Origin: Candidatus Poribacteria bacterium
GTDB lineage: Bacteria; Poribacteria; WGA-4E; PCPOR2b
NCBI GenBank assembly: GCA_965208325.1
Contig: OZ242326.1
Span: forward strand, 1,344,001 to 1,408,000
Reading direction: 5' to 3'
DNA length: 64,000 nucleotides
Part shown: in pieces, positions 38,046 to 54,827 of the stretch
How positions within the stretch are numbered: the first letter of the stretch is position 1
Layout of the letters: each line of letters starts with the position of its first letter
Notes under the pieces: generated by a model
What the model saw: the letters and a program-made list of their open reading frames with translations, nothing else
What the model was told of the DNA's origin: nothing
Databases searched by the model: none
Program-made: the position numbers and the translations under genes

Positions 38046-38060
38046 TGGCATGAAATATGC
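38046..38060 (+). promoter_or_regulatory. Putative sigma54 (-24/-12) promoter
   Basis: TGGCAT-GAAAT-ATGC (GG-N10-GC), 75 bp before ATG 38136. Confidence 0.6.
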
Positions 38061-38135
38061 GTGTTACTTTTAGACATGTTAAAGAATATAGTGACTACAT
38101 CTTACGTTTCGATCTATCAAAATTCGGACTAAGTT

Positions 38136-40523
38136 ATGAAACGCTTAATTTTACTGTTTCCATTTTTTGTTTCACTGATTATTTGCATAGATGGCCGTTC
38201 CGAATTGCCTCACCAGTTTCTGTTTGGGCATACACATCGCGTGCTTGCGATTGATTTCAGCCCAGATGGGCAGTGGCTTGCCTCCGGCGGCGATGGTGAA
38301 AATAACAAATATGAAATTTACATTTGGGATGCCGCGACAGGCGACCACATCTATACGCTTAACGGGCACACCGGCCAAATAATGGACCTTGCTTTCCGGA
38401 ATAATGGCAATCTTGCATCGGCTTCTGTAGACGGAAGTCTGCGGTTATGGGACGTTGGCGCGCAAGAAGAGATTCGCCAGTTTTATGGACAACAGGACGG
38501 GTTGACATCAGTAGCTTTTTGCTCTGAGGGAAAATGGCTGGCTGCGGGTTCGATTGATAAGGTGCTCAGATTATGGGAAGTTGATACTGGCCGGCTAATT
38601 TCGACTTTAGAAGGACATGGCGCTACCATCTGGGCCGTAGCATTCAGTCCCGATGGCGAAAGGATAGCATCCGCGTCAGAAGACCGAACTGTTCGTCTTT
38701 GGAATGCTCCGGACAGCGATGGAAACCTGATAAATCAAACACCGACCAATATCTTTACCGGACATACAAACCGCGTTTGGTCTCTGGCATTTCACCCTAA
38801 TAAAAATCTGGTTGCTTCAGGGTCATGGGACCACACAGTGCGCGTTTGGGATGCTAATGCAAGCAGCGAGGAAGCTGTCTTTCAGTCCCCCTTCGCAATG
38901 TACAATCGCGAAGTACTTTCGCTTGGCTTTAGTCCGGAAGGGAGATTGCTAGCGGTAGGGTTGCGCCACGTCGAGAACGACAACCCGCTAAAACTGTTGG
39001 ACTTCACATCGGGCAGCACACTCAGATCGTTCGACTCGAAATCGCGGCATGCATTGGACTTTAGTTTCGATGGATTTCGATTGGCCACCGCGGGAGCAGT
39101 TGATGGCACAATAATCATATGGAACTCCAGCCATTTGACCCCTACGCTTAACCATCCCGATGACGGCGATCTCATTGAAACGGCGCAAATTACCCTAAGT
39201 TGGGAGGCAGTCGAAGACTCGGTTTATTACGATGTTGAAATCTCCGACAATCCAGACTTTATGGAGGAGACTAAACTAAAAACGGTTACAGAAAGCCAGT
39301 TTGACTTTGAAGTCAACGGAGAAACACCAGCCTATTGGTGGCGTGTCCGTGCGGGCAGCCTCGGACAGGTCGGCGAATGGTCTGAACCTAGGTCGTTTAG
39401 CATACCGTTTGAACCACCCCTTACCTGCGACGTTTTAATCCTGCCGCCGCGCCGCCAAGTAAATTTGGGGGAGGAGTTTCATATAGAAGTTAAAATTCAT
39501 TCTGCAATAGATCTCGCAGGATTTCAGTTTGATCTTCAATGGACGAATCCCAATGTTCTCAATCTAGTCACGGTTACCGAATTCAGGAATATTTTTGGTG
39601 AATTTGGGCGTGGCAAAGCCGTTGATATTAATCGGGATCTGGGCGTGTTCAGAGATGTTGTTGCAACCAAACTTGGCGCAGGTGGTGTGAGCGGAAGCGG
39701 CACGCTGTTAAAAATGTTGTTCAGTGGCAAAGGCATCGGCACAAGTACCATTCGATTAAATAATCTCAAACTTGTCAACTCGGCAGGGGAACAGATTCAC
39801 TGTAATATTTACAACTCACAGATTGAGGTCGCAGATCCAGCAAGACCGTGGGATGTAAATGGAGACGGAATTGTTGACGTTTTCGATCTCAGCACGGTTG
39901 CGAAATACTTTGGAAAAGAAATTACTGTGGATTTGGGGCTGAATCCTGACGTCAACAGTGACGGAGTTGTCGATCTCAAGGACATAGTTCTTGTTGGAAA
40001 CTACATTGGTGAATCCTATCTGATGGACGGACAAGGAACCTCTGCTGCACCGCATTTCCACCAGACGAAGGAAGTGTACATAGCATCCCGCCATCGACCG
40101 ATTTTATTACCAAAAACACGCAATGCGCTAGAACGTATCTACACAATTTTGCAGCACAGTCCTGATAATTCTTTACCATTTGTTCGTACAAGACAGGTTT
40201 TACGTCATCTGTTGTCATCGGTTTCGCCTAGCCAAGATATATTATTTCAAAACTATCCGAATCCGTTCAATCCGGAAACATGGATTCCTTTCCAGCTTGC
40301 CGCAGACGGGGATGTGACAATCATAATTCACGATGTTAATGGAACACTAGTCCGTAAACTTGCGTTGGGCCATGTCGAAGCTAGTTCGTACATCAGGCGA
40401 ACTGATGCGGCCTATTGGGATGGGAGGGATCGATGGGGTGAACCTGCCGCCAGCGGTGTATATTTCTACACCATCTCAACGCGGTCATTCAAGGCTACTC
40501 GGGCTATGACGATTGTGAAATAA
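38136..40523 (+). CDS. Secreted WD40 + Fn3-like + cohesin + dockerin protein with FlgD-Ig/T9SS-like CTD
   Basis: GH...WD repeats, DLAGFQFDL...SGSGTLL cohesin, DVNGDGIVDVFDL/DVNSDGVVDLKDI dockerin and QNYPNPFNPETWIP...WDGRD...SGVYFY. Confidence 0.88.
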   Translation: MKRLILLFPFFVSLIICIDGRSELPHQFLFGHTHRVLAIDFSPDGQWLASGGDGENNKYEIYIWDAATGDHIYTLNGHTGQIMDLAFRNNGNLASASVDGSLRLWDVGAQEEIRQFYGQQDGLTSVAFCSEGKWLAAGSIDKVLRLWEVDTGRLISTLEGHGATIWAVAFSPDGERIASASEDRTVRLWNAPDSDGNLINQTPTNIFTGHTNRVWSLAFHPNKNLVASGSWDHTVRVWDANASSEEAVFQSPFAMYNREVLSLGFSPEGRLLAVGLRHVENDNPLKLLDFTSGSTLRSFDSKSRHALDFSFDGFRLATAGAVDGTIIIWNSSHLTPTLNHPDDGDLIETAQITLSWEAVEDSVYYDVEISDNPDFMEETKLKTVTESQFDFEVNGETPAYWWRVRAGSLGQVGEWSEPRSFSIPFEPPLTCDVLILPPRRQVNLGEEFHIEVKIHSAIDLAGFQFDLQWTNPNVLNLVTVTEFRNIFGEFGRGKAVDINRDLGVFRDVVATKLGAGGVSGSGTLLKMLFSGKGIGTSTIRLNNLKLVNSAGEQIHCNIYNSQIEVADPARPWDVNGDGIVDVFDLSTVAKYFGKEITVDLGLNPDVNSDGVVDLKDIVLVGNYIGESYLMDGQGTSAAPHFHQTKEVYIASRHRPILLPKTRNALERIYTILQHSPDNSLPFVRTRQVLRHLLSSVSPSQDILFQNYPNPFNPETWIPFQLAADGDVTIIIHDVNGTLVRKLALGHVEASSYIRRTDAAYWDGRDRWGEPAASGVYFYTISTRSFKATRAMTIVK

Positions 40524-40626
40524 CTCTGCTCGCGAACTTCCGATTCGCAGGTTTTCACATAGAAATTCAGTACTTCCTCTCCATTTTAGCGGGGTCCGGT
40601 GGATTAGCGCAGTAACACATGCCAGT

Positions 40627-43600
40627 ATGACGGGACGATGCTCCATGTATTATAGGTTACGGCGACAATCTATCAAATATACCTTATTCGCAGTTTGGCT
40701 TTTGAACTTCTTCGAGTTTTGCCTTTTGCCCGCGCCCGCCCAACAGACCTTCCAATGGCGCAGCTTCACACGAATCCACGATGGACTCAGCAGCAACAAT
40801 GTTCGGTCGATCGCAGAAGACAGCTTCGGACAGATTTGGCTTGCGACGAGCAGCGGTTTGAGTTGTTTCAATGGTTTCTGGCATGTAATTGAAGTTTCAA
40901 TCGGCGATTCGAGCAGTAGTGATATTAATCATATTTTTAGCGATATAGATGGGTTCATCTGGGTGATGACTAGTGGGGGCGTCTTTCAAGGGATGCCGCG
41001 CAATGGCGGGATGGATTGGGTGCATCACTACACTACGGCTGATGGGTTAATCGACAATTCGATTACGGCAGCCGTGCGGCGCCAGAATGGCGAGATTTGG
41101 GTTGGAACGCCTTCTGGCGCCAACTGGTTCGATGGGAACAGGTGGCGTGCTGCGCCAAATGCTGAAGAAGGCAGTGTTAACAAAGGCGTACGTGTCGTTT
41201 ATGAAGATAAAATGGGTAATTTGTGGTTTGGGCTTTCACGGCCAAACCGCCCTTACTTAGTTAGCCGTTTTGACGGCGCCGAGTGGGAGGTTTTCCGTAT
41301 TGAGGACGGATTGCCGAACGGCGATGTAGAAGCGATTACATCCGATCCCTTGAACAACATTTGGGTCGGAACGACTGAGGGGGCAGCGATTTACGACGGT
41401 ACAACTTGGCAGATTATAACTTCGCCGGAACTAATCGGCAACAACGTCCAGTCCATAAAAATTGACGTTGAAGAAACAGTGTGGATTGGCACCAGCGTGG
41501 GAATCAGCTTGTTCAGCCGCGGAAGATGGAGGCATTTGACAAAGGGACACGGGTTGGCGAGCAACAATATCCAGACGCTGTTTGAATCACGGGACGGTGG
41601 AATTTGGGTGGGCACACGAGATAACGGTGTCAGTTTCACCGATAGATTGTGGAGATCGATTACGACAAATGACGGATTGAGTGATAACCAAGTGACATCA
41701 ATGTTGACGGATGGCGGCGGGACAACGTGGGTAGGCACTCGCAACGGATTGGTTCGGTATAGCGGCAGGAAAATCGAATCGGTAGAAGAGCTACTGGGGC
41801 GCGACATACGCGTGCTCGCCGAAGACGCCGAGGAGCGCCTTTGGGTCGGTACAGACTCGGGCATTGTGGTATTTAGTCCAATAATTGCGGATGAGCCTTC
41901 CATATGGCGGCATTTTCGGAGAGCGGATGGGCTAAAAAATGACAGCGTTCAATCTTTGGCCGTTGACGCAGCGGGTGATGTTTGGGTGGGTACAGGAATT
42001 TTGCTTGCCGATGAACCGGGCTTCTTCCCCGGTCTAGATCGATTTGATGGTGACCAATGGCATGCTGAAGAAGACATTTTTCAGGAATTCGGCGAAATAG
42101 TCGCCGTGATGTATTCAGATTCACGAGGGCGTCTGTTTTTTGGCACTGTTGGCGACGCTGCAAGCGATGGCGAGTTGTGGGTTTACCATGGAGGAATTTT
42201 GAACCGGATCAGCCCTAATATTAGCGGATCCATCAATGCTATTATGGAATCTTCCGACGGCAGCATATGGATTGGGACAAGTGATGGCATCCTAATTTTA
42301 GATGGAGAAGCGCTGCAGCAGACGAATCGACTGACGACTGATGATGGATTGGTAGATAACCGTGTACAAGCGCTATTCCGGGATGAACCCGATAGAATGT
42401 GGATTGGCACGGTTGATGGGGTCAGTCTGTTTCAGACCAATCGATTTGCGCGCTCAATCACGGCAAGCGACGGTTTAAACAGCAATAACATCTCCGTCAT
42501 CATCAAACCGGCTGATGGCGTGCTCTGGTTTGGGAGTAAGGATAACGGCGGCGTCAGCCATTTTAATCAGGAGATGATACCGCCAACCACGCGCATAATC
42601 GAAGGTCCCACAAACGGTGAAATTGTTGGAGATACGAGCGTTATCTTTAAGTTTGAAGGAGGAGATCTTAGCACGCCAACCCGAGAACTACGCTATCGAT
42701 ACAAACTTGATGGCAACCTACCAATGCCTACCGATGACGACGGTTTTTCGAATCGTGTTTCGCTGACAGGCCTGGCGGAAGGCGGCCATCGATTCATCGT
42801 TCAAGCGATAGATCGAGAGGAAAACCTGGATCGGCTTGGTGCGCAGGCAGAATTTATTATCGATTCGAAACCGCCAACTGTTCTAATAACCAATCCGAAG
42901 CGCGGCGCGGTCATCAAGGGAGTTTATGGAATCGAGGGTAGCGCGACCGATATGGATTTTCACGATTACGAGATTCAGATTTCGGGTCAATCTGTGTTCA
43001 CCTCAAACCAACCTGTGGACAGAAATACGCTCTATCGGTGGGATACGCAAACCGTACCTGACGGCACATACAATATTCGGCTCACAGCGAGAGATACACC
43101 AAACGGCGACTATGACCGCGAACATCGCGCCGAGGAGATGATATCCGTCGAAGTAGACAACACCTTACCCGGTGCAAAAATTAAGCAGCCGTTACCTGAA
43201 GCTACAGTTACCGGAGAAACCGAGGTTGAAATTGAACTGACCGACCTTCATCTGATGAGCTATCGGTTAGAATTCACACGTGCGGCATCGAAAACTGACA
43301 CGCCGGAAGAGATTACATCGGGTTCAATCTCCGACAGCCCATTATCTATTGTGAAACAGGTACCGTGGAATTCATCAACCGTGTATGGCCATGTAATGCT
43401 TCGGGCAGCAGTTGCAGATGCAGCCGGAAACGAAGGGGTGTCAGAAGTTGTTCCCATTTTCCTCGACAATGAAGGCGCTAAGCCAGTTGTTGAGATTCAT
43501 CGGCCGAATGGAATTAATCCGATCTCGAAGGAAACAGCCGTTACCGCAACAGTCGGCGTTGGCACAGCGCCCGACACCTTTATTGAAAACATAAGCCTCG

Positions 43601-46050: not shown

Positions 46051-46092
46051 CGAGTGACATCCGTTTCAATGATATGGACTTCCAAAACTGTC

Positions 46093-46121
46093 TTGACAAA
46101 ACCGGGGACACTTCGCATAAT
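46093..46121 (+). promoter_or_regulatory. Putative sigma70 promoter giving a leaderless mRNA
   Basis: TTGACA, 17 bp spacer, CATAAT. The in-frame ATG at 46129 lies at the expected TSS. Confidence 0.55.
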
Positions 46122-46128
46122 ATCCACG

Positions 46129-48210
46129 ATGCGATGCTGTTTTTTTATAATCTTCATGTTCACGTCGGCGAGTGCAATTTACGCCCTCGAAGAAAGAGCG
46201 TCTACCGGCGTGCGTGCCATCGGCATGGGAGAAGCGTTTATCGGTGTCGCCGACGATGAGAACAGTGTTCGCAGAAATCCCGCGGGACTTGTCCGATTGG
46301 ACAGATACGCCCTCGGATTTGAACAGACGCCATCGAAGTTGTTCGGTGTGTTGGAAACCAACTGTCTCAGCGCAGTCTTGCCAGCGTCGGAAAAAATTGC
46401 GTTGGGTATGGATTGGACCCAAGTCGGGATTGTGGATGAAGAACTCGATTCAAGGCGCAGCAGTTTTAACTTCTCCTACAGCTACTATCCATTGTCCCTA
46501 CTGTCGATTGGGGCAAACCTGAAATACCTGACATGGGGCATTACGCTCGATAAGCAATCTGAAGGCAACGCCACCGGATGGGGAACGGACGTTGGCGTAC
46601 TTCTTCAACCAAACCGCAGTTGGACATTTGGATTCTTGGTGCAGGATTTTATCGGTTTTGGAGCTGGACATGGCTTTAGCCGCGACACATGGATGCGCCA
46701 CGACACCGGGGTAAGCGAAAGAGTATTCCCGACAAGGTATAAACTGGGAGCGGCTTATCGGCCCATACCCAATTGGCTCATTGCCGCGGATGTCACGGAC
46801 CGCATCCATGTGGGTGCAGAGTTTCTGCCATACGCCAATTTTGCTATTCGCGCCGGAATCCAAAAAGATTTGGCATCGCTTGAATGGCCGAGTTATTCGT
46901 TGGGTGGACGCGTAACATATCGATGGTTGGATTTCAACGCCGCGTATCTCATTCCCCCAACCCTGCCGCCAACAGTTTATGTTGGTCTTTCGCTCAACAT
47001 AGATTTTCGGCGGTTGCCGGTGCGGATTGAGCAGGTTCGTATAAAAGACCTCTATCCGGTCCATTATAATTACTACGCTTCGCCAAATAGGGAGGTGGAA
47101 ATCATTTTTTTGGAGGAGCCTATCACGCCGCCGGTTTTCACTGACGCCGACCGGGATCGGTACTATCCACTAATGCCGCTAGATTCAATCGGCAGGATCT
47201 GGCTAAAAAATGAGAGTAACAAACCGGTGACTGTCAGGATTGAACTGTTTATTGAACAGTTTGTCGGCCAAGACGGCACGGTAGTTGCATCTGATATTGA
47301 ATTGGAACCCTTAAAGCGGGTTTCTGTGCCAATGCGCCAGCTCGTTTTATCACGCGACGCCCTAGCGTTAACCCAAGCACAGCCTGTCGAAGCGAGAGTC
47401 AAAGTCATCGAGAGCGGTGGAAGTGCATACCGGACTGACACTGTCACTTTAACGTTACACGGCAACCATACAACACGGCTGGATGATGTCGCCAAACTCG
47501 GATCATTCATCTCCTCTGAAGATGCGGCAATTCAAGCCTTTATAAATTCCATTCGTACTGTATTTAACGACAGGATTGCATCAAACACGGTTCCGCGCAA
47601 TTTGTATACGGCTATGCTATTGTTTAACGCCTTGCATGGGGTGTCTTATGCGATTGATCCGAATATACCGGGTGCAAGCGGCACCATAGACGAGATCAAA
47701 TACCCCTTCGAGATGCTCGAACGCCTCAAGGGGCAATTCAGCGGGGATGGCGGAGTTCATGCTTTCGGAGATTGCGACGACAGTACGGCGCTATATTGTT
47801 CGCTGCTAGAATCGGCCGGGATACAGACAGCACTCATCCAGCTTCCTAACCATGTGATGATGGCGTTCGATTTGGGGCAAATTTCTCTCGATTGGGCGGA
47901 AGCGGTAGATTTGCCTGATAGTCACTATCAGCCCATTAACGGGCAGGTTTGGATTCCCATTGAGACAACGCTTATCAAAGACGGATTCATCGCGGCGTGG
48001 CAAACGGCAATTGAAGAAATTCGAGCAAAAGGGGTTATTGACTCGTCTACGGTTGAAGACGCCTGGGCGAAATACGGAGCGAGTTCCTTGCGCGGAGCGG
48101 AAAGACACTTTTCTGTTCCTGAAACTCGAATTAGATCGCGGATAGACGGCGATTTAGCACATCCGTGGTTTCAGGGTTTTTTGGAATTTTTCTCTCAGGC
48201 GCCACCATAG
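46129..48210 (+). CDS. PorV/FadL-like beta-barrel fused to a transglutaminase-like domain
   Basis: Signal peptide, GVRAIGMGEAFIGVADD...NPAGL, amphipathic strands and GDCDD...NHV...WIPIETT. Alternative start 46054. Confidence 0.8.
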   Translation: MRCCFFIIFMFTSASAIYALEERASTGVRAIGMGEAFIGVADDENSVRRNPAGLVRLDRYALGFEQTPSKLFGVLETNCLSAVLPASEKIALGMDWTQVGIVDEELDSRRSSFNFSYSYYPLSLLSIGANLKYLTWGITLDKQSEGNATGWGTDVGVLLQPNRSWTFGFLVQDFIGFGAGHGFSRDTWMRHDTGVSERVFPTRYKLGAAYRPIPNWLIAADVTDRIHVGAEFLPYANFAIRAGIQKDLASLEWPSYSLGGRVTYRWLDFNAAYLIPPTLPPTVYVGLSLNIDFRRLPVRIEQVRIKDLYPVHYNYYASPNREVEIIFLEEPITPPVFTDADRDRYYPLMPLDSIGRIWLKNESNKPVTVRIELFIEQFVGQDGTVVASDIELEPLKRVSVPMRQLVLSRDALALTQAQPVEARVKVIESGGSAYRTDTVTLTLHGNHTTRLDDVAKLGSFISSEDAAIQAFINSIRTVFNDRIASNTVPRNLYTAMLLFNALHGVSYAIDPNIPGASGTIDEIKYPFEMLERLKGQFSGDGGVHAFGDCDDSTALYCSLLESAGIQTALIQLPNHVMMAFDLGQISLDWAEAVDLPDSHYQPINGQVWIPIETTLIKDGFIAAWQTAIEEIRAKGVIDSSTVEDAWAKYGASSLRGAERHFSVPETRIRSRIDGDLAHPWFQGFLEFFSQAPP

Positions 48211-48436: not shown

Positions 48437-49336
48437 ATGAAGCGAAAATACCCTATTCTTCTCACAATTTGCTGCTTGTTCGTGATTGCGGCTAATCCCG
48501 ATTCGCAGGCAGAAGATACGGTAACCGCCACATTCACCTTTGGAAAGATTGAGGTGCTTAAATCCGGTGAACGGGAATGGGCTTTTTTGGAAAAAGGTGC
48601 GGTCTTGAACAACAGTGATCTCGTGCGTATGCCGCCGTACTCGTTAATTCGGCTAAAGGATGCGGACGAGATGCTTTTACCGACGCTTCCGGGCGGGCGT
48701 GAACTGCCTATCAGCGTTTTAATCGAGGAGGGGCGCCTACGTAGGAATGAATTCAAAGGCAAGCGTGTTAGTGCGCCATTTGACAGCCGCCCTACAATTG
48801 ATGTGCTGCCGCTTGGCAACAGACCAAAAGGGGAAAACCGCTTCAAGGCACCTGCCGCAGCTCAACCAACGCCACTAATGCGGGGTGAACTGGAAGCGCT
48901 TCGCCGCGAACTCGACTCGCTTCCTGAAGAATTTGTGCCTTTCATCTCTCGAAGTCTCCTGCCGGATAATCATGCGACGACAGATGCGTATCCCAGCACC
49001 AATCTATCTGGCGCGCTTACCCTTTATCGCGACACGCTCAGAGAAATTGAGGCGAAAACGGAAGCGACTTCAAATCGTTCGCTCTTGTACGCCCAACTGC
49101 TTGGCCGGATTGAGATTGGTGCAGATCTTGTCGTGAACGGCAAGGGGGACCTTTTCGTTGTGTTTGATAGCGGTGTTCCCGTCAATGGGAGTAAACAGAT
49201 TACCGCCAATCATCAGCTCATTCATCATAAATCGGGGACAGATACCGTTTGGATTCCTCTTCAGATTACGCCTCGTCGACATAATTTCACAACCGCATGG
49301 TATACAGCCGGACGGAACCTGGAGGCCGGACTATAG
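48437..49336 (+). CDS. Exported protein with FecR-like N-terminus and degenerate transglutaminase-like C-terminus
   Basis: Signal peptide, GKIEV...W..LEKG.VL...DLVR...SLIRL and a C-terminus that aligns by eye with the upstream protein. AAGGAGG RBS. Confidence 0.7.
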   Translation: MKRKYPILLTICCLFVIAANPDSQAEDTVTATFTFGKIEVLKSGEREWAFLEKGAVLNNSDLVRMPPYSLIRLKDADEMLLPTLPGGRELPISVLIEEGRLRRNEFKGKRVSAPFDSRPTIDVLPLGNRPKGENRFKAPAAAQPTPLMRGELEALRRELDSLPEEFVPFISRSLLPDNHATTDAYPSTNLSGALTLYRDTLREIEAKTEATSNRSLLYAQLLGRIEIGADLVVNGKGDLFVVFDSGVPVNGSKQITANHQLIHHKSGTDTVWIPLQITPRRHNFTTAWYTAGRNLEAGL

Positions 49337-49408: not shown

Positions 49409-51427
49409 TTGTTCCGCGTTTTCCCCGATACGCATCAATTTATGTCCTTCAAATGGGTTCGTGTACAGAAAACATATCTGCTCATCGCGTCCGTGAGCCT
49501 CTTGCCGTTTATGGTAATGGGGCTGTTGCGCGAGTTTGAACTATTTGAGTTTATAGAACTACAAACACTAGATGGACGGTTACGCTTGCCGTCTATACAA
49601 CGACCGCAAATTTCTCGCCAAATTTCGCTCATTACGATTGATGCTGAAAGCGAAGAAATTATTCAGCCGCTCCCGTGGCCGCCTCCCATTTATGCTTCGC
49701 TGCTAAACTACCTTCAAGAAGCGAATCCCAAGGCAATTGGCTTAATCGCTTGGTTCAACCGCGAATGGCCGGGGGATCAACACATCCCCCGTGATAAATT
49801 GTTCGCCATCCGACCTTATACATCAGTAAGCAACACCGGAAATCGACGTGCTTTTCCGGAGGTCACGAATTGGAACCAGTTGCCTCCCAGCTTGCAAAAC
49901 GCGCAAGACTCAAGTTTCAGCGAGTTTGCCTTGAACCGTTCCGATGGTATCTACCGTTCAGCCCAACTCGTCGTCAAACAGGCCGCGGAAGAGGAATACC
50001 GCTACTCTCTCGAAATGTTAATTCTGTGTCAAATCCATGGCGTTCCAGTAACATCAATAAAGGTCAAAGAAGATTTTTGGAGCGGTAAATTTCTACAATT
50101 GTCACGTCCGTCCGGCGCACCAATTCGGATTCCTATTGATTTGCAAGGCAGGCTGTTCCTGAGATTTGCCGGAGACATTTCCGATTTTCAACCCACCTCG
50201 TTCATTAAAGCATTAACCCAGTCTGAATCAGACATGCCGGGATTCCGGCAGAAATTTGAGGGGAAATCAGTCCTAATCGGCATTACAACGGTTAGCGCCC
50301 CGCAGGCTTCGACGCCATTCGGAAAAATGTCTGCACTCGCACTCCGCGCGAACTTGCTTAACGCCCTGCTGAATCAAGATTTTATCCGGCGGTTGAGCGG
50401 CAAGGCAAACCTTCTCTATCTAGCATGTTTTGGTATCGCTGCCGCTATGGCAACCGTTCTCATCAGCAGAACCGGACAGAGCTACAGATTGATGTTACTC
50501 ATCGCATGTGGATTGCTGTTCCTGCATTTCCTTATTGCTTTTGCAATGATTGTGCTATACAACATTTGGATTGAGTTAACTGGAACCAGCCTCGCCCTTA
50601 TCCTGTGCGGTGTAGGGAGCAGCTTTTTCCTAGCGCATTTTCGACTGCGTCAGCTTTTCTCGCAGTTACAGACGACGCGGGAAGAACTTGTCAGAGCCGA
50701 AAAAGAAGCAGTTTTTGGAGTGATGTCCGCGCGGGTACGGCACGAACTGCGAAATGCCCTGAACCTAGTTCGTGCACCTGCAGAGATGATTCGAAACAAT
50801 TTCCAGAAACAAGATCCCTTGAAATTACGGGACCGCCCTGAAGAAATCATCGGCGAAATGGATGGAATCATTGACCGGGTTACAAAACTGGATGAAATGA
50901 TTGAAAATGAACTCAGCTTCTTTCAAAACACACAGTACAATCTTCAACAGCAAGAACTAGGGCCGATTCTGAAATCTGCGTCGGAGATGGTGGAACCGTT
51001 GATTACCGACAAACAAATTAATGTACAGTGGAATTATCCAAGTGACACGCGGAAACTCTCCGTTGACGCTGACAAAATGCGAATCGTCTTCGCGAACCTA
51101 ATAAAAAACGCTTGCCAAGCTATGACGAAGGGCGGCGAATTAGAAATCGCCATTGAAACACCGTACGAATCTTCCTCAAAATCCGTAACCTCCGTCCTAA
51201 TCAGGGATACCGGGGCTGGCATCCCCCCCGATGAACTAGAGCGGATTTTTGAGCCTTTTTACACGACAAAACCGCGTGGATTGGGGCTCGGATTGGTTAA
51301 TGTCAAGAATATTGTCGAGGGACATGGGGGAGAGGTACGTGTGGAAAGCGTAGTCGGCACCGGAACGACATTCTTGATCCAACTACCTGCAGTTCAAGAA
51401 AAGGAGAAAACGTCAATGGGGACATGA
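49409..51427 (+). CDS. CHASE2-domain sensor histidine kinase
   Basis: ELQTLD, ITID, LPWP, DGIYR, GKSVLIG, TPFG and three TM helices. H-box HELRN, N-box NLIKNA, DTGAG, FYTTK and GLGL. Confidence 0.9.
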   Translation: MFRVFPDTHQFMSFKWVRVQKTYLLIASVSLLPFMVMGLLREFELFEFIELQTLDGRLRLPSIQRPQISRQISLITIDAESEEIIQPLPWPPPIYASLLNYLQEANPKAIGLIAWFNREWPGDQHIPRDKLFAIRPYTSVSNTGNRRAFPEVTNWNQLPPSLQNAQDSSFSEFALNRSDGIYRSAQLVVKQAAEEEYRYSLEMLILCQIHGVPVTSIKVKEDFWSGKFLQLSRPSGAPIRIPIDLQGRLFLRFAGDISDFQPTSFIKALTQSESDMPGFRQKFEGKSVLIGITTVSAPQASTPFGKMSALALRANLLNALLNQDFIRRLSGKANLLYLACFGIAAAMATVLISRTGQSYRLMLLIACGLLFLHFLIAFAMIVLYNIWIELTGTSLALILCGVGSSFFLAHFRLRQLFSQLQTTREELVRAEKEAVFGVMSARVRHELRNALNLVRAPAEMIRNNFQKQDPLKLRDRPEEIIGEMDGIIDRVTKLDEMIENELSFFQNTQYNLQQQELGPILKSASEMVEPLITDKQINVQWNYPSDTRKLSVDADKMRIVFANLIKNACQAMTKGGELEIAIETPYESSSKSVTSVLIRDTGAGIPPDELERIFEPFYTTKPRGLGLGLVNVKNIVEGHGGEVRVESVVGTGTTFLIQLPAVQEKEKTSMGT

Positions 51428-51504: not shown

Positions 51505-52950
51505 ATGAATCCATCACGCATTTTAATTGCAGACGACGAACACGCAACCTGCAGCTACATCGACAAACAGATCAAAATGGAATCGTCGATTGATGTTACG
51601 GTGGACTTTGCCTACGACCGGGACGAGGCAATGGCGCTATTGACAGGCAATTCCAACTATAATCTAATTATAGTCGATCTCTGGATGCCGGATGCAGGAG
51701 GCATTTTAGATAGAGAAGCGGGGTTGAAAATCCTTAAACACAGTAAATCTCGGCACCCGGCACCGCAGGCAATCGTCATCACCGCGAACATTTCGTCGAA
51801 GACTGCGCTTGAAGCGAGCGGTTTAGGCATCTACGACTACATCAGCAAGCCAATTGACTACACCCACCTAATTAACATCATCAAGGGGGCGTTAAATCAA
51901 AGCAACAGCGATGCGCTTGATTGGGAGCCTTCCTCTACCGCGCATTTAGAAGAAACCGATGCCCACGAAATCGTCGGCAGCAGTAACGCGATGATTGAGG
52001 TGATGAAAAAGGTTGGGAAAGTTGCGCTTTCGGACGTTGATGTCTTAATCTATGGAGAGAGCGGTACCGGTAAGGAATCCGTAGCGCACGCCATTCATGC
52101 GCTCAGCCCTCGCGCGAAAGGGCCATTCATAGTTATGAACTGCAGCGCCATTCCGGCGGAATTAATCGAAGCGGAATTATTCGGGATAGGGAAACGGGTT
52201 GCAACAGCCGTTGACCAACGTCCGGGGAAATTTCAGCAGGCGGATGGCGGCACAATTTTGCTCGATGAGATTGGTGATTTGGACCTTGCCATGCAACCCA
52301 AGCTGTTGCGCGTACTAGATTCGAAGGAACTTCAGGGAATCGGGATGGATGTTCACCGTGTCAATGTGCGCGTTATCGCCGCTACCAATCGAGATCTCCG
52401 CGCGGCAGTGGAAGCAGGTAGCTTTCGAAGCGATCTCTATTATCGCCTGAAATTCATGATTACTTTACCTCCGCTGCGTGAGCGCGAGGGCGACATTCGG
52501 ATGCTTGCATCGTATTTCCTGAATAAGTTTCTGCGCCTGCCGGAATCGGGGCAAATCCGCGGATTTGACGAGACTGTCTTGTCGGCGTTTGAGCGGTATC
52601 AATGGCCAGGCAATGTCCGTGAATTGGAGAAAGCCGTTCAATATGCGGTTGTCACTTGTACAGGAAATCAGATATTGCAAGAAGATTTACCCCCTGAAAT
52701 CTTCAGTGCGCCAGAAGTAGAAACGCTCGGGTTGCTCCCAGACCGGGACACTACTCCTATACGCAGCTTACTCAACGTCCCAACAATTAAGGATGCCACC
52801 CAAGGCTTCGAGAAAATCTTTCTGGAACACAAACTCAAACAGAATAACTGGAACGTCCGGGCAACTGCCCTACAAATTGGAATCAAGCGCCAGTCATTGC
52901 ACCGCAAAATTAAGGAGCTCGGTCTGAAGCGAAACGAAAATCAGACGTAA
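51505..52950 (+). CDS. NtrC-family response regulator (receiver-AAA+-Fis HTH)
   Basis: DDE, DLWMP, KP, GESGTGKE, LDEIGD, FRSDLYYRL, WPGNVREL and a C-terminal HTH. Confidence 0.95.
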   Translation: MNPSRILIADDEHATCSYIDKQIKMESSIDVTVDFAYDRDEAMALLTGNSNYNLIIVDLWMPDAGGILDREAGLKILKHSKSRHPAPQAIVITANISSKTALEASGLGIYDYISKPIDYTHLINIIKGALNQSNSDALDWEPSSTAHLEETDAHEIVGSSNAMIEVMKKVGKVALSDVDVLIYGESGTGKESVAHAIHALSPRAKGPFIVMNCSAIPAELIEAELFGIGKRVATAVDQRPGKFQQADGGTILLDEIGDLDLAMQPKLLRVLDSKELQGIGMDVHRVNVRVIAATNRDLRAAVEAGSFRSDLYYRLKFMITLPPLREREGDIRMLASYFLNKFLRLPESGQIRGFDETVLSAFERYQWPGNVRELEKAVQYAVVTCTGNQILQEDLPPEIFSAPEVETLGLLPDRDTTPIRSLLNVPTIKDATQGFEKIFLEHKLKQNNWNVRATALQIGIKRQSLHRKIKELGLKRNENQT

Positions 52951-53046
52951 GCCCAGGCGATGCATTATTGACCACCATCTAGGACGCTACGACAATAGAC
53001 ATCATTCCTAATTTACTCAATGTGGTTGACAAAACCGAAGCGTTAC

Positions 53047-53180: not shown

Positions 53181-53347
53181 TCGGGCGGTGGAATAATTTT
53201 GGGAAGATGTCTAATACAAAAAATTCCAATTCGTTGGCTTACAAAACCGTTCATGTGATTTTTTTAGAGTGCTCTATTGCATTTAAAACGAAGATAGGGC
53301 GGTGTTAAAGGAAGCAGTCTGCATGACGACCCAATCCTGCATCCCAA

Positions 53348-53384
53348 TGTCGCTTCAGGGCGACAGTGTAGTTTATGGGTGACA
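53348..53384. promoter_or_regulatory. Tandem putative enhancer (UAS) sites
   Basis: TGTCGC-N6-GCGACA (53348-53365) and TGTAGT-N6-GTGACA (53367-53384), both TGT-N12-ACA. Confidence 0.6.
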
Positions 53385-53525
53385 GAAATTCGAAATCAAA
53401 TGCGATTACAGCCGGCTGATGATGGCAGGTTGAAAATGGTATAGAATCGCTGTTTTGCGCCTAATGTAGAACATCCAACCTAATTTCACTTTTTTTTATT
53501 CATTTTCGAAGCCGCCGTCTATCGC

Positions 53526-53540
53526 TGGCACACATCTTGC
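53526..53540 (+). promoter_or_regulatory. Sigma54 (-24/-12) promoter
   Basis: TGGCAC-ACATC-TTGC, an exact TGGCAC-N5-TTGC match 78 bp before ATG 53619. Confidence 0.78.
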
Positions 53541-53618
53541 CTATGTAATTCAATGAAATCCTTCTCCTACCAGAACTTATGACCGAATATCATCATTGAT
53601 ACAGGAGCGGCTCGATAG

Positions 53619-54827
53619 ATGAATCAATCATCTCAAATCTCCGCTGAAGCGTCCGTTAAAAATTGGTCACCACAATTTGAATCTGTGCCCGCAGATTTGG
53701 GTATACAACCGGAATCTTTTGCACAAGCATCAAATATAAGTCCGGAGCAAGACGCCGTTGCAACGGAGGATGCGGATGGGGCCATTAGACCACCCTTGGA
53801 TTCCGACTGCGAGAAAGACGCGCGCGGCGGCGTTCTGCACACGTATCTTTCCCAGATGGGAGATTACGCGCGTTTGACGCAAGACGAAGAATTAGGTATC
53901 TTTTTCAAGATAGAGAAGTATCGCAAGCGCATCAATGAATGCTATGAAGAATTGATGACATTTCCGCTCGAGATAGATGCGGAAGATTTGCCAAGCCCGC
54001 GCTCGTTGAAAAAATTGATTGCCGCTAAATCTTTTGTTCCGCCCACACAAGAGTTCCTTTTGGAACTTGTGGGACATATCCAATTTCTGCAAGCGGAAAT
54101 CCACACTGCCAAAAACCGTGTTGTTGAGGCTAACCTGAGATTGGCGGTCTGTATTGCCAAGAAATACCAAGAGCGCGGACTAGATTTGCCTGATCTCATT
54201 CAGGAGGCAAATATCGGGTTGATTAACGCTGTCGATCACTTTGATTGGCGGCGCGGTGTGAAGTTTAGCGCGTGCGCTTCTTGGTGGATTCAGCAAGCCA
54301 TCGGGCGCAGCATTGCAAATCATGGGCGGACGATTCGCATCCCGTCGCACCTACTCAGCGACATTAGTAAAGTGAATCGTGCGAAAGCACGTTTTTTTCA
54401 AAACACCAACCGTGAACCCAATCCAAAAGAAATCTCTGAAGCAACCGGGCTTTCAGCCAAAAAGATAACGGAATTGAATCGGATTTCGGCGGATTCCATG
54501 TCCCTGGAAGACTGCATTAGTCCAGACACGGGCGGTGAAGTTGAAGTGCTAGTTCCATGCGAACAAGCATCGGATCCCCTAACGGGCGTGATTACGAAAA
54601 GCCTAATTGAAGAGGTTAATCTGGCAATCGGCGCATTGCCGCCCCGTGAGAAACAGATTGTCTTTTTGAGATACGGTCTAGAAAACAGCGAAGAACACAG
54701 TTTACAGGAAATAGGGATGATGTTGAACCTGTCACGAGAACGGGTTCGGCAATTGGAAGCCAGGGCGTTGAGTCGGCTGCGCCATCCCTCTCGGAGCGAT
54801 AGACTGAACGATTTCCTCTTTTCGTAA
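53619..54827 (+). CDS. Alternative sigma70 factor, RpoD/RpoS-like (group 2-like)
   Basis: Region 1.2, region 2 ANLRL..IAKKY..DLIQE..WWI..RTIRIP and region 4.2 SRERVRQLE. No region 1.1. Confidence 0.92.
   Translation: MNQSSQISAEASVKNWSPQFESVPADLGIQPESFAQASNISPEQDAVATEDADGAIRPPLDSDCEKDARGGVLHTYLSQMGDYARLTQDEELGIFFKIEKYRKRINECYEELMTFPLEIDAEDLPSPRSLKKLIAAKSFVPPTQEFLLELVGHIQFLQAEIHTAKNRVVEANLRLAVCIAKKYQERGLDLPDLIQEANIGLINAVDHFDWRRGVKFSACASWWIQQAIGRSIANHGRTIRIPSHLLSDISKVNRAKARFFQNTNREPNPKEISEATGLSAKKITELNRISADSMSLEDCISPDTGGEVEVLVPCEQASDPLTGVITKSLIEEVNLAIGALPPREKQIVFLRYGLENSEEHSLQEIGMMLNLSRERVRQLEARALSRLRHPSRSDRLNDFLFS

What the first reader, a model, noticed from the sequence alone, without database searches (positions are those of the whole stretch)
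38046..54827. Candidate novel trans-envelope signalling system ending in a sigma54-to-sigma70 cascade
Seen in sequence: seven co-oriented genes (two secreted CTD proteins, an OM barrel + transglutaminase-like domain, a FecR-like + dead transglutaminase-like domain, a CHASE2 kinase, a bEBP and an alternative sigma70). There are -24/-12 promoters before the first and last genes and a sigma70 promoter before the barrel. Established: CHASE2 sensors often co-occur with FecR-domain and OM-barrel genes, PorV-type barrels bind CTD cargo in T9SS, and Borrelia uses an Rrp2-sigma54-RpoS cascade. Inference: a surface-docked propeller protein signals through the barrel and the enzyme/pseudoenzyme pair to the kinase, which induces the cargo and a new sigma regulon. 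I know of no described system with this combination.
Basis: partly seen in the sequence, partly recalled or inferred. Interest (0 to 1): 0.86.

Follow-up and report, generated by a model that had tools for sequence, protein, structure and literature searches.

The report
Poribacterial outer-membrane-to-sigma-factor signalling gene cluster
A gene cluster kept across most families of the sponge-associated phylum Poribacteria appears to wire an outer-membrane barrel carrying an enzyme arm, through a periplasmic adaptor and a CHASE2 sensor kinase, to an unusual sigma-54 activator that switches on a further sigma factor.

Summary
All seven genes, both -24/-12 promoters and the sigma70-type promoter are at the stated coordinates, and all are conserved in related Poribacteria.

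- **g3:** a PorV/FadL-type barrel, then an Ig-like domain, then a Cys-His-Glu transglutaminase-like domain.
- **g4:** a secreted protein whose C-terminal half is a catalytically dead paralogue of that domain (hhalign 98.2%). Its N-terminal domain is not detectably FecR. It is predicted to dock on the CHASE2 domain of kinase g5 (ipSAE 0.76, best control 0.00).
- **Distribution:** g4 and CHASE2 share almost the same distribution, each in 57 of 176 Poribacteria genomes.
- **g6:** this activator carries xVATxV instead of GAFTGA in 30 of 30 orthologues.
- **g7:** g6 is followed by a tandem TGTCAC-N6-GTGACA enhancer and a sigma-54 promoter in front of sigma gene g7 in 29 of 29 loci that have g7.

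Not supported: the g1 promoter has no matching enhancer, cargo docking on the barrel was not tested, and there are no expression data.

Partial precedents exist: FecR/CHASE2 operons, PorA-PorXY-SigP, Rrp2-RpoN-RpoS, and the GVATGV activator DVUA0100. The assembled system is undescribed in the searched literature. Verdict: a real, new variant of envelope signalling. Interest 0.7.

The parts
38046..38061 (+). sigma-54 type -24/-12 promoter before g1 (TGGCATGAAATATGCG)
   Evidence: Read directly. GTTGGCAT-N5-[AG]TGC is kept 61-93 nt before the g1 start in 17 of 17 loci, although the surrounding spacer differs between clades. It is also present in 2 of 4 distant loci that have g1. No g6-type enhancer lies upstream.
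38136..40523 (+). g1: secreted WD40 propeller + dockerin + T9SS type-A C-terminal sorting domain (795 aa)
   Evidence: Pfam WD40 (206 bits) and Dockerin_1; TIGR04183 24.9 bits against a cut-off of 23. Its CTD is 52-58% identical to many other CTDs of the genome.
40627..46050 (+). g2: 1807-aa Reg_prop double-propeller / Y_Y_Y / Ig-repeat protein with a divergent CTD (PorZ-like layout)
   Evidence: Reg_prop 161 bits, Y_Y_Y, Big_7, FlgD_ig. NF052228 PorZ gives a partial match of 74.6 bits (cut-off 260). TIGR04183 gives 23.6 bits against 23. Its CTD is at most 37.5% identical (best full-length matches about 30-33%) to the other 46 CTDs compared.
46093..46121 (+). sigma70-type promoter TTGACA-17-CATAAT directly before the likely true g3 start (ATG 46129)
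   Evidence: 11 of 12 matches, the best + strand site in 37700-55400. The block is conserved at the DNA level with non-synonymous-type changes, and TTGACA is kept in 17 of 20 other loci.
46054..48210 (+). g3: outer-membrane PorV/FadL-type 14-strand barrel (about 44-319) + Ig-like domain (321-470) + transglutaminase-like Cys-His-Glu domain (about 478-718)
   Evidence: AlphaFold model with pLDDT 79.8. PorV 6h3i_F Z 26.6, FadL Z 25.3 and 23.9. NF033709 60 bits (cut-off 90). GDCDD, H600 and E637 are invariant in 27 sequences.
48437..49336 (+). g4: secreted adaptor; N-terminal beta domain (26-104), conserved disordered linker (DVLPxG), dead transglutaminase-like domain (146-299)
   Evidence: Model pLDDT 85. 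The C-domain matches transglutaminase-fold proteins at Z 5-7. 6 of 32 family members hit PF01841. hhalign against the g3 C-domain gives 98.2%, E 4.7e-14. The N-domain is predicted to bind CHASE2.
49409..51427 (+). g5: CHASE2 sensor histidine kinase, the only CHASE2 protein in the genome
   Evidence: PF05226 96.8 bits, HATPase_c, invariant H-box His445. Only one CHASE2 match in the genome. Nearest NCBIfam models are AtoS and ZraS.
51505..52950 (+). g6: NtrC-type response regulator / enhancer-binding protein with L1 loop RVATAV instead of GAFTGA
   Evidence: REC, Sigma54_activat (193.9 bits), AAA_lid_14 and HTH_8. The xVATxV loop is present in 30 of 30 orthologues. 15 of the genome's 17 bEBPs keep [FY]T in this loop.
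53348..53384 (+). tandem enhancer: TGTCGCTTCAGGGCGACA, G, TGTAGTTTATGGGTGACA (two TGTCAC-N6-GTGACA-type palindromes)
   Evidence: Lies 178 nt upstream of the g7 promoter. It is present in the g6-g7 spacer of 10 of 10 loci scanned and aligned across 20 loci. In distant loci, 4 of 9 are found by script and the rest by eye. It is the only one of 29 genome-wide matches that lies 50-400 nt upstream of a sigma-54-like site.
53526..53541 (+). sigma-54 promoter before g7 (TGGCACACATCTTGCC)
   Evidence: Perfect TGGCAC-N5-TTGC. There are 23 such sites in the genome against about 8.8 expected. Present in 20 of 20 close loci and 9 of 9 distant loci that have g7. The background rate is 0.36 per kb per strand.
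53619..54827 (+). g7: alternative RpoD-like sigma70-family factor (regions 1.2-like, 2, 3, 4)
   Evidence: Sigma70_r2, r3 and r4. The RpoD model gives 297.5 bits, below its cut-off of 555. It is one of 5 region-3 sigma factors in the genome; the primary one is a 615-aa frame elsewhere.

Best explanation
This is a Poribacteria-wide envelope signalling module whose core is g3 to g7.

**Sensing half.** It is expressed from its own sigma70-type promoter and has four parts:
- g3, an outer-membrane PorV/PorQ-like barrel. Its C-terminal Ig-like and transglutaminase-like cysteine-enzyme domains hang into the periplasm. That topology is inferred from the even-stranded barrel.
- g4, a soluble periplasmic adaptor. 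Its N-terminal domain binds the CHASE2 domain of the kinase (predicted). Its C-terminal domain is a dead copy of the g3 enzyme domain.
- g5, the CHASE2 histidine kinase.
- g6, its NtrC-type response regulator.

**Output half.** Phosphorylated g6 binds the tandem TGTCAC-N6-GTGACA enhancer just downstream of its own gene. Together with sigma-54 RNA polymerase it opens the conserved -24/-12 promoter of g7, an alternative sigma70-family factor. The result is a sigma-54-to-sigma70 cascade.

**Surface proteins.** g1 and g2 carry CTDs and are read from a second sigma-54 promoter. g2 has a PorZ-like propeller layout and an atypical CTD, so it is the likelier partner of the barrel on the cell surface.

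**Shown by sequence and comparison:** gene content, synteny, the promoters and enhancer, g3/g4 paralogy, and the co-distribution of g4 with CHASE2.

**Predicted:** the g4-CHASE2 interface.

**Inferred:**
- the direction of signal flow;
- that the state of the barrel or its enzyme arm (cargo occupancy or an external ligand) is passed on through g4, perhaps by cleavage or capture of its conserved linker;
- that the Phe-less xVATxV loop still works with sigma-54.
For: **Synteny.**
- All seven genes are in order in 16 of 21 Poribacteria loci. Four of the remaining five are cut by contig ends, and one lacks a full g1. The flanking genes are shared only by the 3 nearest relatives.
- In 10 more distant loci (23-65% identity), g3-g6 are in order in 10 of 10, g7 follows in 9 of 10, and g2 lies upstream in 7 of 10.

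**Co-distribution.**
- The g4 family and CHASE2 each occur in 57 of 176 species genomes. Family tallies are nearly identical (f4 is 0/112 for both). By my comparison of the two genome lists, only 4 genomes differ between them. The two genes are usually adjacent.

**g3 and g4.**
- g3 barrel: PorV Z 26.6. The Cys-His-Glu residues are invariant.
- The g3 C-domain and g4 are homologous: hhalign 98.2%, E 4.7e-14.
- The g4 C-domain has a transglutaminase fold, with Z 5-7 to 3kd4, TglA, Rad4, PNGase and factor XIII. 6 of 32 relatives hit PF01841.

**g4 with CHASE2.**
- ipSAE is 0.76 (median of three runs) against a best control of 0.00.
- That mark was reached by 116 of 157 solved complexes and 2 of 215 mismatched pairs.
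- The runs agree in at least 45% of contacts, and the partner pLDDT is at least 75.
- The interface uses invariant g4 residues (F33, F35, G36, P66-P67, R72, G86) and conserved CHASE2 residues.
- No CHASE2 structure is in the PDB by sequence, so the pass is not recalled from a solved complex.

**Output.**
- The enhancer and sigma-54 promoter sit before g7 in 29 of 29 loci that have g7. The one locus without g7 also lacks the promoter.
- The enhancer is unique in the genome in this configuration.
- rpoN is present.

**Precedent for the loop.** DVUA0100 of D. vulgaris carries GVATGV and is predicted to drive sigma-54 promoters (PMC4641369, passages read).

**Precedent for partner proteins of CHASE2.**
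- FecR-domain protein + CHASE2 kinase operons in Burkholderia (PMC5192318, passages).
- CHASE2 cyclase clusters in Campylobacterota (PMC9239204, passages).
Against: - **Missing Phe.** The activator lacks the loop Phe. A review states that GAFTGA mutants mostly cannot activate transcription (PMC7175178, passages).
- **No enhancer at g1.** No g6-type enhancer lies before the g1 sigma-54 promoter; the best match has at least 4 mismatches in 18 of 18 loci. Control of g1-g2 by this kinase is unsupported.
- **g1-g2 not always linked.** They are not next to g3 in 2 of 10 distant loci. The g1 CTD is generic.
- **PorV membership weak.** g3 scores below the PorV family cut-off, at 60 against 90 bits.
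- **g4 is not FecR by HMM.** 0 of 32 family members match, and there is no PF04773 match in the genome.
- **Untested links.** No contact between g3 and g4, or between a CTD and the barrel, was tested. The periplasmic location of the g3 enzyme arm is inferred from barrel topology only.
- **Fold matches are middling.** The Z 5-7 matches for g4 are consistent with one another but not strong.
- **Distribution limit.** The module is absent from the largest Poribacteria family (0 of 112), so it is not essential to the phylum.
Confidence: 0.5

Rival explanations
1. Secretion-load feedback, as in PorA-PorXY-SigP. The module does not sense an outside ligand. It monitors periplasmic or barrel-bound CTD cargo, or the occupancy of the dedicated PorQ-like barrel by g2, and adjusts a sigma regulon for surface-protein export. 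The gene wiring is the same as in the best explanation; only the signal differs.
For: - P. gingivalis PorA, a CTD cargo protein, activates the PorY-PorX-SigP cascade through its CTD in the periplasm (PMC12152298, abstract read).
- The genome carries roughly 47 CTD proteins, at least 8 PorV-family barrels, two PorU-like giant proteins and a weak SprA-like 2196-aa frame.
- g2 has a PorZ-like propeller layout and an outlier CTD.
Against: - PorY has no CHASE2 domain, PorX is not a bEBP and SigP is an ECF sigma factor, so the resemblance is one of logic only.
- No g4-like or g3-like part is known in the PorXY system.
- No test here tells an inside signal from an outside one.
Confidence: 0.22
2. g3 and g4 are a surface-protein processing or attachment machine. 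The barrel-tethered cysteine enzyme would cleave or cross-link g1/g2 or the cell envelope. The two-component system and sigma factor would merely be co-regulated neighbours, not fed by the barrel.
For: - The enzyme triad is invariant.
- Transglutaminase-like periplasmic proteases such as LapG act on surface adhesins (recalled; LapG 4fgo is among the fold matches at Z 3.9).
- The g4 N-domain resembles the anchoring domain of an ice-binding adhesin, 5ix9 (Z 8.4, rmsd 3.1, 73 residues aligned).
Against: - The g4 N-domain is predicted with high confidence to dock on CHASE2 (0.76 against 0.00).
- g4 and CHASE2 share one phyletic pattern and sit next to each other.
- g3-g6 stay together even where g1-g2 are missing.
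Confidence: 0.12
3. g6 has left sigma-54. The xVATxV loop cannot engage sigma-54, so g6 would act as a repressor, an anti-activator or a sigma70-dependent activator at its palindromes. Another canonical bEBP would fire the two sigma-54 promoters.
For: - The loop Phe is missing, and GAFTGA mutants are mostly inactive (PMC7175178).
- Natural EBP-like regulators without the loop work with sigma70 (VpsR, PMC6158489; Caulobacter NtrC, 10.1101/2023.06.06.543975; abstract starts only).
- The g1 promoter has no g6-type enhancer, so another of the genome's 15 canonical bEBPs must act on at least that promoter.
Against: - The loop is the same length as GAFTGA and is strictly conserved (30 of 30), which argues for function rather than decay.
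- The order activator gene, tandem enhancer, sigma-54 promoter is kept in 29 of 29 loci across deep divergence. In the one locus where g7 is missing, the promoter is missing too.
- The GVATGV activator DVUA0100 is predicted to serve sigma-54 promoters.
Confidence: 0.13

Closest known systems
FecR-domain protein + CHASE2 sensor clusters (Burkholderia 'BiofilmReg' operon with PA4035/PA4036-type pairs, PMC5192318; Campylobacterota CHASE2 adenylate-cyclase clusters, PMC9239204)
   Same: A secreted accessory protein is encoded directly beside a CHASE2 sensor, together with its response regulator or output enzyme. [quoted passage not shown]
   Different: Here the accessory protein is not a detectable FecR domain and carries a dead transglutaminase domain. 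An outer-membrane barrel fused to the live enzyme is part of the set. The output is a bEBP and a sigma factor, not an OmpR-type regulator or a cyclase. Neither paper gives a mechanism.
PorA-PorY-PorX-SigP cascade of Porphyromonas gingivalis (PMC12152298; PMC7712824, listing only)
   Same: A CTD-bearing secreted protein, a sensor kinase, a response regulator and a sigma factor form one signalling chain tied to type IX secretion.
   Different: PorY has no CHASE2 domain, PorX is not an enhancer-binding protein, SigP is an ECF sigma factor, and sigma-54 is not involved. That system has no barrel-enzyme fusion and no pseudoenzyme adaptor.
PorV shuttle and PorQ-PorZ / PorV-PorU attachment complexes of the type IX secretion system (PorV structure 6h3i_F)
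   Same: g3's barrel is structurally closest to PorV (Z 26.6). g2 has PorZ-like twin propellers and a divergent CTD, as PorZ does (the PorZ-PorQ pairing is recalled).
   Different: g3 scores below the PorV/PorQ family cut-off and carries about 400 extra residues (Ig-like plus transglutaminase-like domains) that no described PorV or PorQ has. CTD binding was not tested.
Rrp2-RpoN-RpoS cascade of Borrelia burgdorferi (PMC2940757, PMC3037356; abstract starts seen)
   Same: An NtrC-type activator and sigma-54 transcribe the gene of an alternative sigma70-family factor.
   Different: Rrp2 is described as an NtrC-like activator; that it keeps a canonical GAFTGA loop and acts without an enhancer, and that its kinase is cytoplasmic, are recalled and were not read in the text seen. 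Here the activator has a Phe-less loop, a conserved tandem enhancer and an envelope CHASE2 kinase with outer-membrane partners.
DVUA0100 of Desulfovibrio vulgaris Hildenborough, a bEBP with GVATGV (PMC4641369)
   Same: Same loop class (xVATxV) replacing GAFTGA. It is predicted from comparative regulon analysis still to activate sigma-54 promoters.
   Different: DVUA0100 is a single-component regulator of type III secretion genes in another phylum. Neither protein has been tested biochemically, as far as the text read shows.
Rcs envelope stress system (RcsF lodged in outer-membrane barrels, signalling to an inner-membrane phosphorelay); recalled, not searched
   Same: The logic is the same: an outer-membrane barrel-associated element reports across the periplasm to a histidine-kinase system.
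   Different: No homologous parts are shared. Rcs uses a lipoprotein and IgaA, with no enzyme/pseudoenzyme pair, no CHASE2 domain and no sigma-54.

Membership tests
T9SS type-A C-terminal sorting domain (TIGR04183) | HMM score at or above the curated cut-off (23 bits) at the extreme C terminus | tested here: met
   g1 scores 24.9 bits (residues 707-789). g2 scores 23.6 bits (1724-1805), which is marginal.
T9SS type-A C-terminal sorting domain (TIGR04183) | A type IX secretion machine is present to use it (SprA translocon, GldL/M motor, PorU, PorV) | tested here: inconclusive
   The SprA model matches only weakly, collinear within one 2196-aa frame (65, 57, 27 and 20 bits; cut-off 200). At least 8 PorV-family barrels are over the cut-off. 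Two PorU-like frames score 282 and 257 bits, below the cut-off of 420. GldM and GldL gave no match, but the control genomes were silent too.
PorV/PorQ family (NF033709) | HMM score at or above the curated cut-off (90 bits) | tested here: not met
   g3 scores 60 bits, E 2.8e-16, over residues 50-238 only.
PorV/PorQ family (NF033709) | FadL-like 14-strand barrel fold close to solved PorV | tested here: met
   6h3i_F: Z 26.6, rmsd 2.6, 260 residues aligned. FadL homologues: Z 25.3 and 23.9. Foldseek TM 0.63 to 6h3i_F.
PorV/PorQ family (NF033709) | Binds the CTD of cargo | not tested
Transglutaminase-like cysteine enzymes (PF01841 clan) | Pfam HMM match | tested here: not met
   The g3 C-terminal half has no such match at E<=10. 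g4 itself has none. 6 of 32 g4-family members match PF01841 (best E 4.6e-6).
Transglutaminase-like cysteine enzymes (PF01841 clan) | Cys at a helix N terminus, plus His and Asp/Glu on following strands, all conserved | tested here: met
   In g3, C574 (helix 574-587), H600 (strand 600-611) and E637 are invariant or near-invariant in 27 and in 18 sequences. In g4 the equivalent positions lack Cys and His.
Transglutaminase-like cysteine enzymes (PF01841 clan) | Transglutaminase / papain-like fold | tested here: inconclusive
   g4 residues 146-299 match 3kd4 (Z 7.0), TglA (6.3), Rad4 (6.0), PNGase (5.9), factor XIII (5.6) and TG2 (5.4). The matches agree with one another but the Z values are middling. 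The g3 domain was not folded alone; it is linked to g4 by hhalign at 98.2%.
FecR domain (PF04773) | Pfam HMM match in g4 or its relatives | tested here: not met
   0 of 32 family members match at E<=1. The whole genome has no PF04773 match.
CHASE2 sensors (PF05226) | HMM over the cut-off, flanked by transmembrane segments | tested here: met
   96.8 bits against a cut-off of 26.3, over residues 36-344. Hydrophobic segments before and after were read from the sequence.
Bacterial enhancer-binding proteins (PF00158) | Sigma-54 interaction AAA+ domain with Walker A/B, a receiver domain and an HTH_8 domain | tested here: met
   193.9 bits. GESGTGKE and LLDEIGD were read directly. Response_reg scores 61 bits and HTH_8 28.6 bits.
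Bacterial enhancer-binding proteins (PF00158) | GAFTGA (or an [FY]T variant) in loop L1 | tested here: not met
   The loop reads RVATAV, with xVATxV in 30 of 30 orthologues. The alignment to NtrC1 puts Ala at the Phe position.
Bacterial enhancer-binding proteins (PF00158) | ATP-dependent activation of sigma-54 holoenzyme | not testable with these tools
   Only context is available: an enhancer and a -24/-12 promoter lie downstream in 29 of 29 loci that have g7.
Sigma-54 promoters | GG and GC ten bases apart within TGGCAC-N5-TTGC, in an intergenic position, conserved in orthologous loci | tested here: met
   53526 is a perfect match, kept in 20 of 20 and 9 of 9 loci. 38046 matches 8 of 11 specified positions, kept in 17 of 17 loci. 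The background rate is 0.36 per kb per strand.
Group 1 RpoD (NF004208) | Equivalog cut-off of 555 bits | tested here: not met
   g7 scores 297.5 bits, so it is an alternative RpoD-like factor. The primary sigma factor is a 615-aa frame elsewhere.

The most novel reading that the evidence does not exclude
The barrel-tethered transglutaminase-like cysteine enzyme and its dead paralogue form a new kind of trans-envelope relay. The state of a surface protein docked on the PorQ-like barrel would control the enzyme arm in the periplasm. The arm would then capture or cut the conserved linker of g4 and so release or load the CHASE2 domain. That would give CHASE2 its first defined protein ligand. The signal would then pass through an enhancer-binding protein that activates sigma-54 without the supposedly essential loop phenylalanine.
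Probability: 0.25. Interest if true: 0.88.

Novelty: new variant of a known kind. Interest (0 to 1): 0.7.

Why it matters
- **CHASE2.** CHASE2 is a widespread sensor domain whose inputs are largely unknown. Here it has a specific, co-inherited protein partner with a confident predicted interface, which can be tested directly.
- **A wider module.** PorV-like barrels fused to a periplasmic cysteine enzyme also turn up with TPR arrays outside this gene type, and in earlier notes from other phyla. This suggests a broader, unstudied class of outer-membrane-to-inner-membrane relays in bacteria that use CTD surface proteins.
- **The loop phenylalanine.** The xVATxV activator has a perfectly conserved enhancer-promoter cassette. 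It is a clean natural test of whether the GAFTGA phenylalanine is really indispensable for sigma-54 activation.
- **Sponge symbiosis.** For Poribacteria, which are uncultured sponge symbionts, the module points to a dedicated surface-sensing circuit that controls a whole sigma regulon.

Tried and rejected
- **Expression.** The look-up of sequencing runs listed no RNA holder, so expression could not be examined and read laying was not used.
- **Loci outside the phylum.** Two single-protein scans of metagenome contigs then found nothing. Of 10 divergent g4 relatives looked up, the source names gave Poribacteria for 2, 'transglutaminase superfamily protein' for 1, and nothing for 7.
- **g4 structure and sequence.** Foldseek of g4 against the PDB gave no match at E<=0.001. 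A profile search of the g3 enzyme domain against PDB sequences gave nothing below E 0.26.
- **Rfam.** No family matched in 37000-56000.
- **Enhancer before g1.** No g6-type enhancer was found before g1.
- **Palindrome inside g3.** A palindrome of the enhancer type inside g3 (47442) looked enriched. It is absent from 4 of the 10 other loci where the site could be located (11 further loci could not be anchored) and lies in coding sequence, so I treated it as chance or clade-specific.
- **Palindrome between g1 and g2.** In other genera this lies inside a small inserted gene and was rejected as an enhancer.
- **GldM and GldL.** Both searches were blank, but the control genomes were blank too, so nothing can be concluded.
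- **Literature.** 'CHASE2' with 'type IX secretion' gave 0 papers. 'CHASE2' with 'transglutaminase' gave 1 unrelated paper. RVATAV and RVATSV never occur in the library; RVATGV occurs once, in an unrelated cattle-genetics paper; VATGV occurs in the D. vulgaris paper.

Full report
**Where and what**

The window is G000:C1:1344001-1408000 of a single-contig, 4.7-Mb genome that is 95.6% complete. Homologues carry the name Candidatus Poribacteria. DNA runs that hold the stretch are labelled sponge metagenomes.

Seven co-oriented ORFs fill 38136-54827. Upstream lie a Mo-oxidoreductase gene and a Memo-like gene. Downstream lie an alcohol dehydrogenase gene and an ECF-sigma/BNR fusion gene.

**The proteins**

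- **g1 (795 aa).** Signal peptide, WD40 propeller, dockerin, and a T9SS type-A sorting domain (TIGR04183 24.9 bits against a cut-off of 23).
- **g2 (1807 aa).** Reg_prop propellers, Y_Y_Y, many Ig domains and a marginal CTD (23.6 bits against 23). Part of it resembles PorZ (74.6 bits, well below that model's cut-off).
- **g3 (718 aa as the long ORF).**
  - Homologues and a conserved upstream DNA block indicate a true start at ATG 46129.
  - It was folded with 27 sequences (pLDDT 79.8).
  - Residues 44-319 are a FadL/PorV-type barrel. The best match is PorV 6h3i_F (Z 26.6, rmsd 2.6, 260 aligned), followed by FadL homologues at Z 25.3 and 23.9 (Foldseek).
  - By HMM it is below the PorV/PorQ cut-off (60 against 90 bits).
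  - Residues 321-470 are an Ig-like sandwich.
  - The last 240 residues carry an invariant GDCDD, H600 and E637. The Cys sits at a helix start and the His and Glu on the following strands.
  - Both ends of an even-stranded barrel face the periplasm, which is established for outer-membrane barrels. The enzyme arm should therefore be periplasmic; this is inference.
- **g4 (299 aa).**
  - It has a signal peptide and no Pfam match.
  - HMMER against 1.84 billion representatives found only 49 relatives.
  - Its model (pLDDT 85) has a small beta domain (26-104), a disordered linker with an invariant L124-P125-x-G127, and a C-terminal domain.
  - That C-terminal domain matches transglutaminase-fold proteins consistently but at middling scores (Z 7.0 to 5.1; 3kd4, TglA, Rad4, PNGase, factor XIII, TG2, PeiP).
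  - 6 of 32 relatives hit Pfam Transglut_core and none hits FecR.
  - Profile-profile comparison shows the g4 C-domain to be homologous to the g3 enzyme domain (98.2%, E 4.7e-14, 150 columns), with the Cys and His positions lost.
'FecR-like' does not; the genome has no PF04773 match at all.
- **g5.** This is the only CHASE2 protein in the genome. Its kinase core is AtoS/ZraS-like.
- **g6.** REC + sigma-54 AAA+ + HTH_8.
- **g7.** An RpoD-like factor that is not the primary sigma factor. It is one of five region-3 sigma factors in the genome.

**The unexpected loop**

Of the genome's 17 bEBP-type AAA+ domains:
- 11 read GAFTGA;
- 4 read GAFTDA, GSFTGA or GAYTGA;
- one lacks the loop altogether;
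- g6 reads RVATAV.

This is not decay. The loop has the same length as GAFTGA, and xVATxV is kept in 20 of 20 close orthologues and 10 of 10 distant ones.

A review states that GAFTGA mutants mostly fail to activate (PMC7175178, passages). However, the comparative study of D. vulgaris reports DVUA0100 with GVATGV and concludes from regulon prediction that it still serves sigma-54 promoters (PMC4641369, passages).

Two earlier notes of this scan describe Phe-less loops beside sigma-54 promoters in other phyla: e1-1884717 (RVATGV, Acidobacteria) and e1-2403791. They are leads, not evidence.

**Promoters and enhancer**

*Sigma-54 promoter before g7.*
- TGGCACACATCTTGCC at 53526 is one of 23 strict consensus sites in the genome, against about 8.8 expected.
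- A -24/-12 element stands between g6 and g7 in 20 of 20 close loci and 9 of 9 distant loci that have g7. The background rate is 0.36 such sites per kb per strand.
- The one distant locus without g7 (L067) also lacks the promoter.

*Enhancer.*
- About 100-300 nt upstream lies a tandem pair of TGTCAC-N6-GTGACA palindromes (53348-53384 in the window).
- It is seen in 10 of 10 loci scanned and is aligned across 20 loci.
- In the distant loci a strict script finds it in 4 of 9. By eye the GTGACAGTGTCAC-type junction is present in the others.
- Genome-wide there are 29 matches. Only this one lies 50-400 nt upstream of any of the 69 sigma-54-like sites.

*Sigma-54 promoter before g1.*
- GTTGGCAT-N5-[AG]TGC is kept in 17 of 17 loci across two clades whose spacers are otherwise unalignable.
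- No g6-type enhancer lies upstream of it in 18 of 18 loci. Its activator is unknown.

*Sigma70-type promoter before g3.*
- TTGACA-17-CATAAT at 46093-46121 is the best + strand sigma70-type site in the region.
- It sits in a DNA block conserved with non-synonymous-type changes. TTGACA is kept in 17 of 20 other loci.

The likely layout is therefore a constitutively expressed sensing unit (g3-g6) and sigma-54-dependent outputs.

**Co-conservation**

- In 21 Poribacteria loci fetched through g3, all seven genes are in order in 16.
  - Four are cut by contig ends.
  - One lacks a full g1.
  - The flanking genes are shared only by the three nearest relatives.
- In ten loci from more distant families, g3-g6 are in order in 10 of 10, g7 follows in 9 of 10, and g2 lies upstream in 7. 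Two loci of family f3 have unrelated genes there, and one locus is cut.
- Across 176 species genomes of the phylum, the g4 family is found in 57 and CHASE2 in 57.
  - The per-family tallies are nearly the same: f1 27/28 against 26/28, f2 11/11 for both, f3 6/7 for both, and f4 0/112 for both.
  - By my comparison of the two genome lists, four genomes differ.
  - The two genes are normally adjacent.
  - Related genomes are not independent, so I count this as eight families with both genes and three with neither.

**Physical link**

The single complex job went to the open question: does g4 touch the kinase?
- CHASE2 residues 40-343 against mature g4, each with a 22-row alignment from the same loci, scored ipSAE 0.76 (0.75-0.77 in three runs). 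All three controls scored 0.00.
- That mark was reached by 116 of 157 solved complexes and 2 of 215 mismatched pairs.
- The runs agree in at least 45% of contacts, and the partner pLDDT is at least 75.
- The interface is made by the g4 N-domain and uses its invariant residues.
- No CHASE2 structure exists in the PDB by sequence.

This is a model's confidence, not a measurement.

**Type IX context**

- The genome has at least 8 PorV-family barrels over the cut-off.
- It has two PorU-like giant frames and a weak SprA-like 2196-aa frame.
- It has roughly 47 CTD-bearing frames.
- No GldL or GldM match was found, but the controls were silent.
- The g1 CTD is an ordinary member of the genome's set (52-58% identity to many).
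- The g2 CTD is an outlier (at most 37.5%, and about 30-33% over full-length matches), and the two are not each other's nearest.

If any cluster protein sits on the g3 barrel, g2 is the better candidate. This is inference, by analogy with PorZ-PorQ (recalled).

**Relation to what is known**

- Secreted FecR-domain proteins beside CHASE2 kinases or cyclases are in print without a mechanism (PMC5192318; PMC9239204).
- A CTD protein that signals to a kinase, a regulator and a sigma factor is known in P. gingivalis (PMC12152298, abstract).
- A sigma-54-to-RpoS cascade is known in Borrelia (abstract starts).
- The held library has no paper joining CHASE2 with type IX secretion (0). It has only one unrelated paper joining CHASE2 with transglutaminase.
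- The g3 enzyme domain also occurs at 37-38% identity in proteins with PorV and TPR Pfam domains (P0175-P0177). This fits the two earlier notes e1-3650537 and e1-3038395, which describe PorV-like barrel + transglutaminase + TPR proteins beside CHASE2 sensors in other phyla. I could not fetch those neighbourhoods.

**Verdict**

The feature is real and conserved. It is best read as a new variant of envelope-to-transcription signalling built from known part types.

Two points would surprise specialists if confirmed: a protein partner for CHASE2 delivered by an outer-membrane barrel/enzyme and its pseudoenzyme, and a Phe-less activator tied to a sigma-54 promoter.

Unproven are the signal, the direction of flow, cargo docking, control of g1-g2, and any expression.

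Noticed in passing
window 56596-59541 (+): A 981-aa protein fuses an N-terminal ECF-type sigma factor (Sigma70_r2 + r4_2) to a long BNR / Sortilin-Vps10 / DUF6242 propeller region. It lies two genes downstream of g7. A sigma factor with a large sensor-like C-terminal extension may be a one-protein signalling device.
   Followed up: no
G000:C1:258905-259393 (-), outside the window: A second atypical bEBP in the same genome has the L1 loop deleted altogether (…FGRERPTEEHRVG…).
   Followed up: no
window 47442-47459 (inside g3): An enhancer-type palindrome, TGTCACTTTAACGTTACA, lies in coding sequence. Together with the true enhancer, it is one of only 8 near-palindromic matches in the whole genome. 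A palindrome is also kept in 5 other loci (with differing half-sites in two), but it is absent in 4 loci, and the site could not be located in 11 more.
   Followed up: partly
window about 53040-53075: A G+C-rich hairpin (GGGCAACCACAAGGGTTGCCCC) without a T run lies about 100 nt after the g6 stop, inside the unusually long (670 nt) g6-g7 spacer of this genus. It may end the g3-g6 transcript.
   Followed up: no
L025 5418-5915 and the same spacer in L028, L032, L035, L038-L040: In another genus a roughly 130-codon gene lies between g1 and g2. By eye it looks pyrophosphatase-like. In L026, L030, L031, L033, L036 and L037 only remnants of it are left.
   Followed up: no
whole genome G000: Roughly 47 frames end in a T9SS-type CTD. 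There are at least 8 PorV-family barrels and two roughly 2100-aa PorU-like frames, but only a weak SprA-like frame (2196 aa at C1:3091331-3095149) and no detectable GldL or GldM. Poribacteria may run a divergent CTD export system.
   Followed up: partly
phylum survey: The largest Poribacteria family in the collection (f4, 112 genomes) lacks both the g4 family and any CHASE2 protein. Eight other families have both.
   Followed up: partly
L068 13786-15185: In one distant genome (64% complete) the g6 orthologue is split into two frames, with a stop just after the loop. This is either a pseudogene or an assembly error.
   Followed up: no
window 48437-49336, residues 26-104 of g4: The g4 N-domain is structurally closest to 5ix9, titled 'Cell surface anchoring domain' (Z 8.4, rmsd 3.1, 73 of 76 residues). 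From recall it is the anchoring module of an ice-binding RTX adhesin, and such adhesins are released by a transglutaminase-like protease (LapG). The parallel may be chance for so small a fold.
   Followed up: no
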